From Octopus sinensis (lineage: Eukaryota): DNA of 64,000 bases. The position numbers and the translations under genes were made by a program. Below are positions 3,765 to 24,139 of this stretch, piece by piece. The stretch covers positions 44,392,001-44,456,000 of the forward strand of contig NC_043001.1 in the NCBI RefSeq assembly GCF_006345805.1, in the 5' to 3' direction. Position 1 is the first letter of the stretch. Each line of letters begins with the position of its first letter. The notes below the pieces were generated by a model. That model ran no database searches, was not told the DNA's origin, and saw nothing but the letters and a program-made list of their open reading frames with translations.

Positions 3765-4348
3765 ACAGAATTCAATAAATTCAATCATATTTTTCATAAA
3801 TGGAAGAGATTAGATGTTAATATTGATTGAAATTATTTTTATTCATGTAGCCATACAATCATTTCATACAGAAAGACAATAAATTCATTTTAAGAATTTG
3901 GATTGTCAAAAGGTATTCGTCAATATCAAAACTATCTCTTAATAACGGAAACAAAAGTGGAAAATGCGGGCGGCCTAATTGTGGCACATGCCCCCACCTT
4001 TTGGAAGGTAAGAATTCTACTTCAAACAAGGTGAAATATTTAAGATAAAGTAAATTTCACTTGTGCCTCTGAAAACCTAATCTATGTTATTACCTGCTTA
4101 GGTTGCGAAAACCACTATATTGGAGAAACACGAATGTCCCTCAGACGAACAACGCTTCACAAAGAACAAATCCGCTTCCCACAATATAGACAGATACAGG
4201 TCAGTGAGCACGTAGATGTGCTAGGAAGCTTAAACCAAACTTTCTAATTTTCCCTTTTTATCAATGTTCCCAGAACACCTCAGTGCAGCAAGGACTAAAT
4301 AAAGCTGCAACTTTTATTAATAAATATCAACCACAACTTAATACATGA
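3765..4348 (+). pseudogene. Penelope-like element C-terminal relic: Cys-rich linker plus GIY-YIG endonuclease
   Basis: Hand translation gives GKCGRPNCGTCPHLL (from 3959), NFTCASENLIYVITCLGCENHYIGETRMSLRR (from 4053), then LHKEQIR, VSEH and FINKYQPQLNT*. Frameshifted, starts beside (TA)n. Confidence 0.85.
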
Positions 4349-4526
4349 CACTACTAACCTTACTAATACCAATAATCCCACTAATCCTCATATATATCAA
4401 TCATATTCTATTAATCATATTAACCTAGTTGTATCATTTTCAGAACTGCTTACCTCCCTTGTATGCAATCTTTTCACTCAGGTACTATTAGATCCAACAC
4501 CGTTTGGAAATCGGTGTTGATTCAAC

Positions 4527-4559
4527 GTCAGTGAACAGCGATGACGAAACCGGTGTGAC
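4527..4559 (+). ncRNA. Variant minimal type I hammerhead-like motif (GUGAACA core) downstream of the PLE ORF
   Basis: gtca-GTGAACA-gcgatgac-GAAAC-cg-GTG-tgac: stem I gtca/tgac, palindromic stem III accggt. Cleavage triplet GUG is non-canonical. Confidence 0.5.
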
Positions 4560-5473
4560 TTTCTAGATTGACTCATGATAATGATTTTTATATTTCTTAA
4601 TTCCACCTCAAATCATTTATTTGTCTGTATATATCTTTGTTTTTATTTCTAAAAAAGGTCATTATTTCATACCTTGTGTGCATTTTCTTTGTTTCTTTTT
4701 ACTTTTCCCCTATTTATACAACGTACAGTCTTTTTTCTTTGAAACCTGTTTCTTTTACATATGTGCGTGTGTCTCCACCACTGCTTCACAACTGATGTTG
4801 GTTTGTTTACGTCCCCTGTAATCTAGCGGTTCGGCAAGAGACTGATAGAATAAGTACCAGGCTTTGAAAAAAATGCACTGGAGTTGATTCTTTCGACTAA
4901 CAATTCAAGGCAATGCTCCGGCATGGCTACAGTCAAAGACTGAAAAATAATTAAAATATAAGAGATTAAAAGACTATTCCTTATTCTGAGAAGTAAGGAT
5001 ACATTATTGCTTCTGGTGTTTCGTTGGTACGATCATTCAGAACTATCAGTACGATCCTTCTTACGAACAGCATTGTAAACATATTCGGCAATAACATCAT
5101 CTCTCATGCAAAGAAGTAATACCATGTGAACATTATCTCGGACAGTTGATGATGATGATGATGATGAGAGGAATATCTTCCATACTGATATGACACAGCA
5201 TTTTGTAACACAACCAGGGGGTTTCTTTTATTTAACGAATATTTTCGCTATCAACTCCTGTTCCCGACGAGTGAAGGCAGGTCCTTTATTTGTCAGATAT
5301 GATGTAATGTATCTGTCATACGTCAGGGAAGGATACTGTACTTGTCAATGTTGGTATTTTATAGTTTTCCCGATGTGTATCCAAGCGTAACTTTCAACAA
5401 ATATGATGAGCGCTTCTTTTCTAAGTTACTGTTTAAGTAGCGCCATCCACGGAACTGCTATATTTCTCGCTAT

Positions 5474-8541: not shown

Positions 8542-9047
8542 AGACTTACAACTGTTTTTCTTCTGTTTTTTATAAGCGCCGAAATGTGTATAGAGATACA
8601 AATAAGATGATAATTTATTTTCCAACACCGAGATGCCGTTAGAACAGCTGACACATTGGGTGAATTACCCTTACTAAGCGAAAAGATTGGTCAAACAGCC
8701 AGAGTCTTAAGAGATATAGGCTCGAGTCCCATGGCTGTTTGTTGACAAATTATTGTATCTCTATACACATTTCGGCGCCTATATATAAATGAAAAACGTT
8801 AGCTTGTTTATATTTATATGCACGTGGTTGCACATTTAGCTTTTAAAAAAGCGTCTAAAAAACAGATTGATATGTCGGCGGGCAGTTTAGCTTAATGATA
8901 AAGCACTTGGCCGGAGTTTTTAAAAGACATGGGTTCGAGACCCATGGCTTTTGGTTGATAAATTTTTCCGCTTTGTAAGGGCAATTTACCCAATATCTCT
9001 GCTGCTCTAATGGCGTCTTTGCGTTCGAAAATAAATTATCATCTTAC
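8540..9047. repeat. Nested inverted-repeat element with tRNA-like (Pol III box) segment
   Basis: gcgccgaaatgtgtatagagataca (~8576) is inverted at ~8755-8779. ~8602-8690 is inverted at ~8960-9047. tagcttaatg and ggttcgagacc boxes lie at ~8888-8943. Confidence 0.6.
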
Positions 9048-22193: not shown

Positions 22194-22494
22194 TATACAT
22201 GAATATACATATATATATATACATTTAGCAATTAAGGACAACTACTTAATAAGGAAAACTTAACAAGAAATGTCAGGTAGATAGCGTAAAAACCTCAATA
22301 AGAGAAAAAATTTCGAAAATAATTATTTCTTATTGAACATATTAATTTATATATAGAGGGAGGGCATTATACATACATGCCAGGAGGCATTCTACATACA
22401 CGCCATACGCTAAGAGGGACAATCAGTCATTTCTACCAAAATATTACTAATCCCCCGAATGCATTTTTCAAAGAAAGACTTTAAAAATATATAT

Positions 22495-22542
22495 AGACCT
22501 GTATCACAGTGATTTCATACTTACGTAATCATCAGCCGGCCT
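22495..22542 (-). ncRNA. Minimal type I hammerhead ribozyme (array copy 1)
   Basis: Reverse complement of the 23173 motif, with one stem I mismatch. Confidence 0.7.
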
Positions 22543-22974
22543 GAATATACTATAAATAAACAACGACCCCGCTTCGCTTAAGCCGATCAGCTAACTGATC
22601 AACATCAACGAAGCACATGGTTGAATTTATATATACTATATCCGGATGAATGGCAAACTTTTACGAATTGCATTTCGGAGAGGACAAGTTTTTTCGGAAT
22701 AAAAATTTAGCAATTAAGGACAACTAATTAATAAGGAAAACTTAACAAGAAATTGTCAGGTAGATAGCGTAAAAACCTCATAAGAGAAAAAATTTCGAAA
22801 ATAATTAATTTCTTATTGAACATATTAATTTATATATAGAGGGGATTATACATACATGCCAGGAGGCATTCTACATACACGCCATACGCTAAGAGGGACA
22901 ATCAGTCATTTCTACCAAAAATATTACTAATCCACCGAATGCAATTTTTCAAAGAAAGACATTTAAAAATATAT

Positions 22975-23021
22975 AGACCTGTATCACAGTGATTTCATAC
23001 TTACGTAATCATCAGCAGCCT
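22975..23021 (-). ncRNA. Minimal type I hammerhead ribozyme (array copy 2)
   Basis: Same core, with a 1-nt deletion in stem I. Confidence 0.7.
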
Positions 23022-23172
23022 GAATATACTATAAATAAACAACGACCCCGCTTCGCTTAAGCCGATCAGCTAACTGATCAACATCAACGAAGCACATGGT
23101 TGAATTTATATATACTATATCCGGATGAATGGCAAACTTTTACGAATTGCATTGTTTATTTATAGTATATTC

Positions 23173-23220
23173 AGGCCTGCTGATGATTACGTAAGTATGA
23201 AATCACTGTGATACAGGTCT
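23173..23220 (+). ncRNA. Minimal type I hammerhead ribozyme (array copy 3)
   Basis: aggcctg-CTGATGA-t-tac-gtaa-gta-t-GAAA-tcac-t-gtga-TA-caggtct: 7-bp stem I, GNRA-capped stem II, palindromic stem III, AUA cleavage triplet. Confidence 0.82.
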
Positions 23221-23646
23221 ATATATTTTTAAATGTCTTTCTTTGAAAAATTGCATTCGGTGGGATTAGTAATATTTTTGGTAGAAATGACTGATTGTCC
23301 CTCTTAGCGTATGGCGTGTATGTAGAATGCCTCCTGGCATGTATGTATAATGCCTCTATATAAATTAATATGTTCAATAAGAAATAATTATTTTCGAATT
23401 TTTTCTCTTATGAGGTTTTTACCTATCTACCTGACAATTTCTTGTTAAGTTTTCCTTATTAAGTAGTTGTCCTTATTGCTAAATTTTTATTCCGAAAAAA
23501 CTTTTCCTCTCCCGAAATGCAATTCGTAAAGTTTGCCATTCATCCGGATATAGTATATATAAATTCAACCATGTGCTTCGTTGATGTTGATCAGTTAGCT
23601 GATCGGCTTAAGCGAAGCGGGGTCGTTGTTTTTTTTATAGTAATTC

Positions 23647-23693
23647 AGCCTGCTGATGATTACGTAAGTATGAAATCACTGTGATACAGGTCT
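23647..23693 (+). ncRNA. Minimal type I hammerhead ribozyme (array copy 4)
   Basis: gcctg-CTGATGA...GAAA-tcactgtga-TA-caggt. Confidence 0.78.
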
Positions 23694-24139
23694 ATATATT
23701 TTTAAATGTCTTTCTTTGAAAAATTGCATTCGGTGGGATTAGTAATTTTTGGTAGAAATGACTGATTGTCCCTCTTAGCGTATGGCGTGTATGTAGAATG
23801 CCTCCTGGCATGTATGTATAATGCCCTCTATATATAAATTATATATATATACATATATATATGAATATACACACATACACGCACACACACACGCACACAA
23901 ACAGGCACACACATACATACTCACACACACACATACACATACACACACACACAAACACACGCACACACACACACGCACGCACGCACACACACACAATGCA
24001 AAAAGGAATATGAAACAAAATTTTTTATGAAGACGCAAAAGAGAGGGAAAAGAGCAGACAAGGAACTTCCTCAGCTCAACAAAAAAAAAGACCAGAACCA
24101 CAACAACGACGACGGCGACAATGACAGGGATGATGGATG

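What the first reader, a model, noticed from the sequence alone, without database searches (positions are those of the whole stretch)
4527..4559. Hammerhead with reciprocal C3G/G8C core swap beside a Penelope ORF
Seen: the core reads GUGAACA instead of CUGANGA, sitting in correct stem I / GAAAC / palindromic stem III context about 180 nt after the PLE stop codon. Known: positions 3 and 8 form a Watson-Crick tertiary pair, so G3-C8 is compensatory. Inference: this is a natural variant lineage that CUGANGA-based searches would miss. This copy has GUG at the cleavage site and may be dead.
Basis: partly seen in the sequence, partly recalled or inferred. Interest (0 to 1): 0.75.

Follow-up and report, generated by a model that had tools for sequence, protein, structure and literature searches.

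The report
Swapped-core hammerheads in Neptune retrotransposons
A family of animal jumping genes carries a small 'hammerhead' RNA motif in which two paired letters of the catalytic core have swapped places, and related families use each of the other three possible pairs there; the motif likely still cuts itself slowly as a two-copy unit, which is untested.

Summary
Confirmed, and larger than reported. Window 4524-4562 is a minimal type I hammerhead in the 3' repeat of a decayed Neptune-type Penelope-like element. G3 and C8 are the family state (30/30 and 28/30 copies); the cleavage triplet is GUA in 26/30, GUG here. Descendant subfamilies switched to A3-U8 (85 A-U, 11 G-C, 1 A-C, 0 G-U among 100 hits with one stem I), a sister family has U3-A8, and 8/8 outgroup loci have C3-G8: all four Watson-Crick pairs in one clade. 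The core is identical across families whose flanks are at shuffled-level identity, and the stem III palindrome is always kept. Published mutagenesis shows C3G/G8C rescues activity. I found natural U3-A8 in print but not G3-C8 or A3-U8; two key papers were unavailable. Against robust catalysis: amplified subfamilies carry A14U or U in place of G12, G3-C8 copies show no 5' ends at the cut (1/30), and cleavage is untested. Two of 13 full-length 5' ends, both A3-U8-like, lie at the predicted cut. The scan noted a swapped core once before elsewhere in this genome. New variant of a known kind.

The parts
3927..4770 (+). 5'-truncated, decayed copy of a Neptune-type Penelope-like retrotransposon (end of ORF plus 3' pseudo-LTR)
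   Evidence: Extent of similarity to other copies, L001 1098-1941; 3' end of copies at about 4762-4770; flanks about 94% identical to the family majority (255 of 272 positions)
3962..4348 (+). Broken remnant of the Zn-finger linker and GIY-YIG endonuclease (frameshifts and stops)
   Evidence: Three-frame translation; Pfam GIY-YIG E 0.0015; tblastn with P0002
4495..4519 (+). Conserved 8-bp hairpin or DNA dyad with a 9-nt spacer just 5' of stem I; kept through the G3-C8 and A3-U8 subfamilies, absent from the U3-A8 family; role not known
   Evidence: Alignment of 95 loci
4524..4530 (+). Hammerhead stem I, 5' strand (C4526 is a private mismatch; A in 29 of 30 copies)
4531..4537 (+). Catalytic core strand, positions 3-9, with G3 (4531) and C8 (4536) swapped relative to C3-G8
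   Evidence: G 30/30 and C 28/30
4538..4545 (+). Minimal stem II (G10.1-C11.1) and 6-nt loop; its 3' side can pair with the stem I 5' strand as a competing fold
4546..4554 (+). G12-A13-A14 and palindromic stem III (A15.1 to U16.1), predicted to pair with a second copy
   Evidence: duplex -8.3 kcal/mol
4555..4555 (+). N17, predicted cut between 4555 and 4556; G here, A in 26 of 30 copies
4556..4562 (+). Hammerhead stem I, 3' strand
4563..4770 (+). Rest of the 3' pseudo-LTR; in full-length relatives this end is joined directly to the 5' leader of the next unit

Best explanation
This is a minimal type I hammerhead motif in the pseudo-LTR of a Neptune-type Penelope-like retrotransposon, whose lineage carries G3-C8 in place of the C3-G8 core pair and likely cleaved its own RNA slowly as a dimer. 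Shown: the motif, its position, the G3-C8 family state, and covariation of the pair to A3-U8, U3-A8 and C3-G8 in relatives. Inferred: two copies in a tandem transcript (or two RNAs) pair through the palindrome to form stem III; the GUGANCA/GAAA strand of one copy cuts after N17 of the other; the 3-8 pair holds the ribose of nucleotide 8 in place, so base identity can swap if pairing is kept; the cut would trim or circularise the element RNA but is not required for every insertion. The copy in the window is a dead, truncated relic.
For: (1) Family state; in contigs of three organism labels no other letter reaches 4% at 4531 and C>T at 4536 stays under 10% of depth. (2) Covariation: with stem I held fixed, 85 A-U, 11 G-C, 1 A-C, 0 G-U, 3 other among the first 100 of 274 hits (hand count); one change of position 3 on a tree of 88 rows built without the motif, on a branch of 0.0064 changes per site. 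(3) U3-A8 in the sister family and C3-G8 in 8 of 8 outgroup loci with downstream DNA, at the same place after the ORF. (4) Nine core letters, G10.1-C11.1 and the palindrome are identical between the window family and the U3-A8 family while flanks are 60.6% vs 60.8% for shuffles. (5) Stem III stays palindromic through four lengths/sequences, stem I is repaired after mismatches, and A14 is regained at least once. (6) Dimer co-folding gives the double hammerhead as the minimum for L105 (G3-C8) and L071 (A3-U8). (7) Literature: C3G/G8C is the only core double change with strong rescue in an all-pairs scan (PMC9901934) and partly restores a PLE hammerhead (PMC11167929). (8) 2 of 13 full-length 5' ends lie within 3 nt of the predicted cut (p 0.003-0.02).
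Against: No cleavage was measured. 75 G3-lineage hits have GAUAC (A14U), about as many as the 79 with GAAAC. In the youngest A3-U8 sublineage 76 of the first 100 of 182 hits have U where G12 aligns (hand count), yet it amplified. Among 30 copies found with the downstream sequence only, 1 starts within 3 nt of the cut and 16 start at 4506-4559, mostly keeping the motif uncut. The two cut-coincident ends are nearest to A3-U8 subfamilies; the two G3-C8 full-length ends that reach the motif keep it whole (L312, L317). In the window family a competing hairpin beats the hammerhead monomer fold (-5.3 vs +2.0 kcal/mol; 3 of 3 copies misfold in the dimer minimum). Stem I passed through mismatched stages. 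In the all-pairs scan other core changes, which would include A3-U8 and U3-A8, were low. Covariation rests on about three independent events, not on hundreds of copies.
Confidence: 0.66

Rival explanations
1. The motif keeps the hammerhead fold, including the 3-8 pair and the dimer helix, as a structural or protein-binding element (RNA dimerisation, packaging with the RT, template jumping), and catalysis became dispensable in this lineage.
For: Amplified subfamilies with A14U and with U at or next to G12; uncut motifs in most inserted copies; in the Anolis PLE, catalytic mutants insert normally in vitro and no RNA ends map to the cut (PMC11167929); Naiads thrive without a canonical hammerhead (PMC8557442).
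Against: U4, G5, A6, A9, G12 and A13 were kept across saturated flanks; A14 was regained; two full-length ends sit at the cut; the 3-8 pair forms in the catalytically active conformation (established knowledge, cited in PMC9901934).
Confidence: 0.26
2. The motif is a dead relic: an ancestor picked up two neutral core mutations that look compensatory by luck, and copy number only reflects one founder.
For: Within one subfamily, agreement among copies says nothing about selection; within the ladder, keeping 9 core letters has a neutral chance of 6-12%.
Against: A second clean double change (G-C to A-U) on a very short branch with no amplified mismatch stage; palindrome preserved through repeated changes; stem I repaired; four of four pair types are Watson-Crick (rows picked by me).
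Confidence: 0.07
3. Chance resemblance to a hammerhead.
For: No Rfam hit.
Against: 0 hits in 60 resampled windows; canonical hammerheads at the homologous place in 8 of 8 outgroup loci.
Confidence: 0.01

Closest known systems
Minimal type I hammerheads of metazoan Penelope-like elements, including the U3-A8 Cercyon variant of Schistosoma (Cervera and de la Pena 2014, PMC4209133; read parts 1-2 of 4, searched 2 supplements)
   Same: Type I, in the pseudo-LTR, palindromic unstable helix III, G10.1-C11.1, predicted dimer; covariation at 3-8 already seen once (U3-A8, about 1,300 hits there).
   Different: Purine at 3 and pyrimidine at 8 (G3-C8, A3-U8); helix II only 1-4 bp with no extra base after A9; all four pairs within one clade; further core changes in amplified subfamilies.
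Laboratory C3G/G8C double mutant (PMC9901934, PMC11167929, PMC8495972, PMC3884650; passages seen)
   Same: Same swap; rescues activity partly where single mutants are dead.
   Different: Engineered; here it is the inherited state of several successive natural subfamilies.
Natural core variants of Perreault et al. 2011 (PMC3088659; passages seen)
   Same: Compensatory change at the 3-8 pair in nature.
   Different: Only U3-A8 is named there; the passages seen list A6C, A6a, U13a, U15.1-A16.1 and 2a/2b insertions, not G3-C8 or A3-U8.
Neptune clade of endonuclease-positive PLEs (features from Craig et al. 2021, PMC8557442; passages seen)
   Same: RT followed by CX2-5CxxC linker and C-terminal GIY-YIG with CCHH; (TA)n targets; inverted and tandem pseudo-LTRs.
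   Different: Non-canonical hammerhead core; an extra upstream frame of 325 or more codons in full-length copies, where canonical elements are described with a single ORF.

Membership tests
Hammerhead ribozyme (type I, minimal) | Three helices round the core in type I order | tested here: met
   Stem I 7 bp in the family, 1-bp stem II, palindromic stem III; kept or repaired across subfamilies
Hammerhead ribozyme (type I, minimal) | U4, G5, A6, A9, G12, A13, A14, A15.1-U16.1 | tested here: met
   28-30 of 30 copies at each position; not met in the A14U and G12U subfamilies
Hammerhead ribozyme (type I, minimal) | Literal C3 and G8 (CUGANGA) | tested here: not met
   C3 in 0 of 30, 0 of 27, 0 of 79; hence filed as a variant
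Hammerhead ribozyme (type I, minimal) | Watson-Crick pair between 3 and 8 | tested here: met
   G-C in 67 of 79; 96 of 100 paired; four pair types
Hammerhead ribozyme (type I, minimal) | NUH cleavage triplet | tested here: met
   Family GUA 26 of 30; not met in this copy (GUG)
Hammerhead ribozyme (type I, minimal) | Match to an Rfam hammerhead model | tested here: not met
   No hammerhead at E <= 10 in 4440-4640
Hammerhead ribozyme (type I, minimal) | Site-specific self-cleavage | not testable with these tools
   Indirect footprint inconclusive: 1 of 30, 2 of 13
Neptune-type Penelope-like element | RT with C-terminal GIY-YIG in one ORF | tested here: met
   RVT_1 in L093, GIY-YIG in L081, aligned; window remnant matches by tblastn
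Neptune-type Penelope-like element | CX2-5CxxC linker and CCHH in the endonuclease | tested here: met
   C-x4-C-x2-C before the endonuclease, C-x2-C between GIY and YIG motifs, two later His
Neptune-type Penelope-like element | Pseudo-LTR in tandem or inverted arrangement, (TA)n targets | tested here: met
Neptune-type Penelope-like element | RT phylogeny with named Neptune vs Nematis references | not tested
   No reference sequences were on hand; Nematis shares the linker, so the clade name is by features only
Non-circularly permuted hammerheads (SGC, CSG, GCS) | Scrambled block order | tested here: not met
   Order is core, GAAA, site = type I (definitions in PMC10085705)

The most novel reading that the evidence does not exclude
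One clade of Neptune retrotransposons has walked an active dimeric hammerhead through all four Watson-Crick pairs at the catalytic 3-8 position, giving the first natural, working G3-C8 and A3-U8 hammerheads; protein or dimer context also lets it tolerate A14U and a change at G12, so genomes hold many functional hammerheads that CUGANGA searches cannot see.
Probability: 0.4. Interest if true: 0.78.

Novelty: new variant of a known kind. Interest (0 to 1): 0.62.

Why it matters
The C3-G8 pair was first inferred from a crystal structure and engineered swaps; here evolution supplies the swaps, in dated order, in one genome. It shows that CUGANGA descriptors and Rfam miss whole retrotransposon lineages, which bears on claims that some PLE clades lack hammerheads. 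The ladder of subfamilies (G3-C8, A14U and back, A3-U8, G12 changed) is a ready natural series for the open question of whether PLE hammerheads must cut at all.

Tried and rejected
Rfam scans: no hammerhead among the 150 of 195 rows shown for the whole window nor at the site. Reading the loop II letters as the core: rejected, no room for stem II and relatives align otherwise. G17 copies as a subfamily: L001, L002, L005 held together not rejected (p-AU 0.54) but not shown; L007 and L025 were not anchored and L065 was mis-anchored in that tree. Sequencing runs: no RNA holder listed; all runs were contigs, so RNA ends could not be seen. Genome-contig scan: no relative. One search used a wrong column and was repeated. 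In one search, 5'-truncated rows gave long branches and one U3-A8 row (L098) was mis-anchored; the ladder is best read. Of 110 loci, 15 had no usable ORF end, and one search used 85 rows. Papers not held: Lunse et al. 2017 (PMC5785218), Przybilski and Hammann 2007 (PMC1986816), PMC4008931, PMC4447102, PMC2151028; one supplement of PMC4209133 could not be searched; the eLife supplements were listed, not read.

Full report
Observation. The window lies in a 2.72-Gb animal genome; earlier scan notes call it octopus-like, which I did not test. At 4524-4562 the + strand holds stem I, the core GUGAACA, a one-pair stem II, GAAA, the palindrome ACCGGU, G17 and the closing strand of stem I. It follows a broken GIY-YIG frame by 179 nt. 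A descriptor that accepts any Watson-Crick 3-8 pair finds this one site in the window and none in 60 resampled windows. Rfam finds no hammerhead there.

Family state. A DNA search gave 509 candidates, 40 scored, 30 fetched. In these 30, position 3 is G in 30, position 8 is C in 28, position 7 varies, and N17 is A in 26 and G in 4. Patterns that leave 3 and 8 free agree: G3 26 of 27 and C8 24 of 27; G3 75 of 79, G3+C8 67 of 79, C3 0 of 79 (hand counts). Contigs of three organism labels hold the family, with no other letter at 4% or more at 4531, a minor C>T at 4536 and A as the majority at 4555; laying on a reference favours similar copies.

The element. [quoted passage not shown] Copies end in (TA)n and carry inverted or tandem pseudo-LTRs. 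Named homologues at 43-47% identity come from bivalves or bivalve-symbiont assemblies. The window copy is truncated and broken.

The 3-8 pair covaries. Relatives found with an RT-thumb protein query (120 of 150 places examined) carry the motif at the same place with other pairs. With stem I fixed as AAAGCA, the first 100 of 274 hits (0 control) are 85 A3-U8, 11 G3-C8, 1 A.C, 0 G.U and 3 other. A family at 60-64% identity to the query has U3-A8. Of 10 metagenome loci, the 8 with downstream DNA (5 distinct families, presumably animal host DNA) all have C3-G8 about 145-215 nt after the ORF. Trees built without the motif form a ladder: G3-C8 (window family, tips 0.04-0.12 apart from four near-identical rows), G3-C8 with a shorter stem I, then A3-U8, with one switch on a branch of 0.0064 (protein tree; one change at position 3 among 88 rows). 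The independent events number about three; copy counts are not independent evidence.

Selection on the fold. Between the window family and the U3-A8 family the flanks are 60.6% identical, equal to shuffles (60.8%), yet nine core letters, G10.1-C11.1 and the palindrome are the same. Along the ladder stem III stays palindromic as it changes (6, 8, 8 and 10 nt forms), and stem I goes from 7 perfect pairs through mismatched stages to 6 perfect pairs and then a paired A-U to G-C change. Co-folding two copies gives the double hammerhead as the minimum for L105 and L071, but not for three window-family copies or L115, where loop II pairs with the stem I 5' strand.

Evidence against robust cutting. 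75 G3-lineage hits read GAUAC (A14U), forming a grade between two GAAAC groups, so A14 was lost and regained at least once. In the youngest A3-U8 sublineage 76 of the first 100 of 182 hits have U where G12 aligns; a register with G12 kept and U inserted or A13 changed is also possible. Among 30 copies found by downstream sequence alone, 16 begin at 4506-4559 and only 1 within 3 nt of the cut. Among 13 independent full-length 5' ends (17 loci examined; four duplicated loci counted once, one truncated locus left out), 2 lie within 3 nt of the cut (p 0.003-0.02 by a uniform model); both are nearest to A3-U8 subfamilies, and five keep the whole motif, two of them G3-C8.

Mechanism. Shown: anatomy, position, inheritance and covariation. 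From published work: single C3G or G8C kills and the double change partly rescues, also in a PLE hammerhead that needed its protein (PMC11167929); in an all-pairs scan this swap was the only strong rescue in the core strand (PMC9901934); minimal PLE hammerheads cut weakly and only as dimers or with an extended helix III (PMC4209133). Inferred: two copies pair through the palindrome, one supplies the core and the other the site, and cutting is slow and optional for insertion. With G3 the G17-C3 trap cannot form, and C17 might mispair with G3; C17 is 0 of 30, 0 of 27 and 3 of 75 in the G3 lineage and common in the U3-A8 family, in line with an unshown observation in PMC3884650. I give slow catalysis 0.66, a non-catalytic structural role 0.26 and a neutral relic 0.07.

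Comparison and novelty. Natural U3-A8 is in print (PMC3088659; PMC4209133). Searches for G3-C8, A3-U8, C3G/G8C with Penelope, core covariation and octopus hammerheads and two supplements of PMC4209133 showed no natural G3-C8 or A3-U8. The library is partial, and Lunse et al. 2017 on PLE hammerhead variants and Przybilski and Hammann 2007 could not be read, so priority is not established. The scan noted a swapped core once before in another piece of this genome (e1-9597707); a sequence look-up found no look-alike of this stretch, so that may be another family; I did not check it. Papers seen: PMC4209133 parts 1-2 of 4; passages only for PMC11167929, PMC8495972, PMC3884650, PMC3088659, PMC6765202, PMC8557442, PMC9901934, PMC10085705 and bioRxiv 2026.07.22.740005. 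Hammerhead numbering is the standard one, partly recalled.

Verdict. It is a new variant of a known kind: a PLE hammerhead with a purine-3/pyrimidine-8 core, in a clade that shows all four pairs. Activity is untested and has real counter-evidence. Interest 0.62.

Noticed in passing
window 22217-23846: About 475-bp repeat in inverted and tandem copies with four canonical C3-G8 type I hammerheads (cores at 22535 and 23015 on -, 23180 and 23653 on +) that have a stable stem III; looks like a retrozyme.
   Followed up: partly
window 36146 (-): Canonical minimal hammerhead core with a short palindrome and GUU site in a short repeat between (TA)n runs.
   Followed up: no
G000, e.g. L032-L044, L049-L060: Abundant roughly 350-bp tandem family with a canonical core and the same ACCGGU palindrome (most of 130 hits vs 25 control); sharing the palindrome could allow mixed dimers with the PLE motifs.
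   Followed up: no
L294, L344:531-1655: Full-length elements have an extra upstream frame (325 codons before the first stop in L294, 375 stop-to-stop in L344) ahead of the RT-endonuclease ORF, starting about 25 nt after the pseudo-LTR; no Pfam match above cut-off.
   Followed up: partly
window 4506-4559 in family coordinates: 5' ends of short copies pile up just upstream of and inside the motif, often as head-to-head inverted pairs (16 of 30); may mark a transcription start or a reverse-transcriptase stall at the hairpin.
   Followed up: partly
L081, L082, L085, L133 and one search hits: Youngest sublineage with U where G12 aligns, then a GAAAA form with a 10-nt palindrome nested inside it; possible loss and partial recovery of the core.
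   Followed up: partly
G000:C27:5447354, C27:6798199, C27:6799202, C13:51174950, C3:27915924: GUGANCA...GAAACCGGU hits with loop II unlike this family; could be chance (46 control hits) or another G3-C8 family.
   Followed up: no
window 8881-8953 (+): Weak tRNA match (29.8 bits, gathering 29), probably the head of a tRNA-derived SINE.
   Followed up: no
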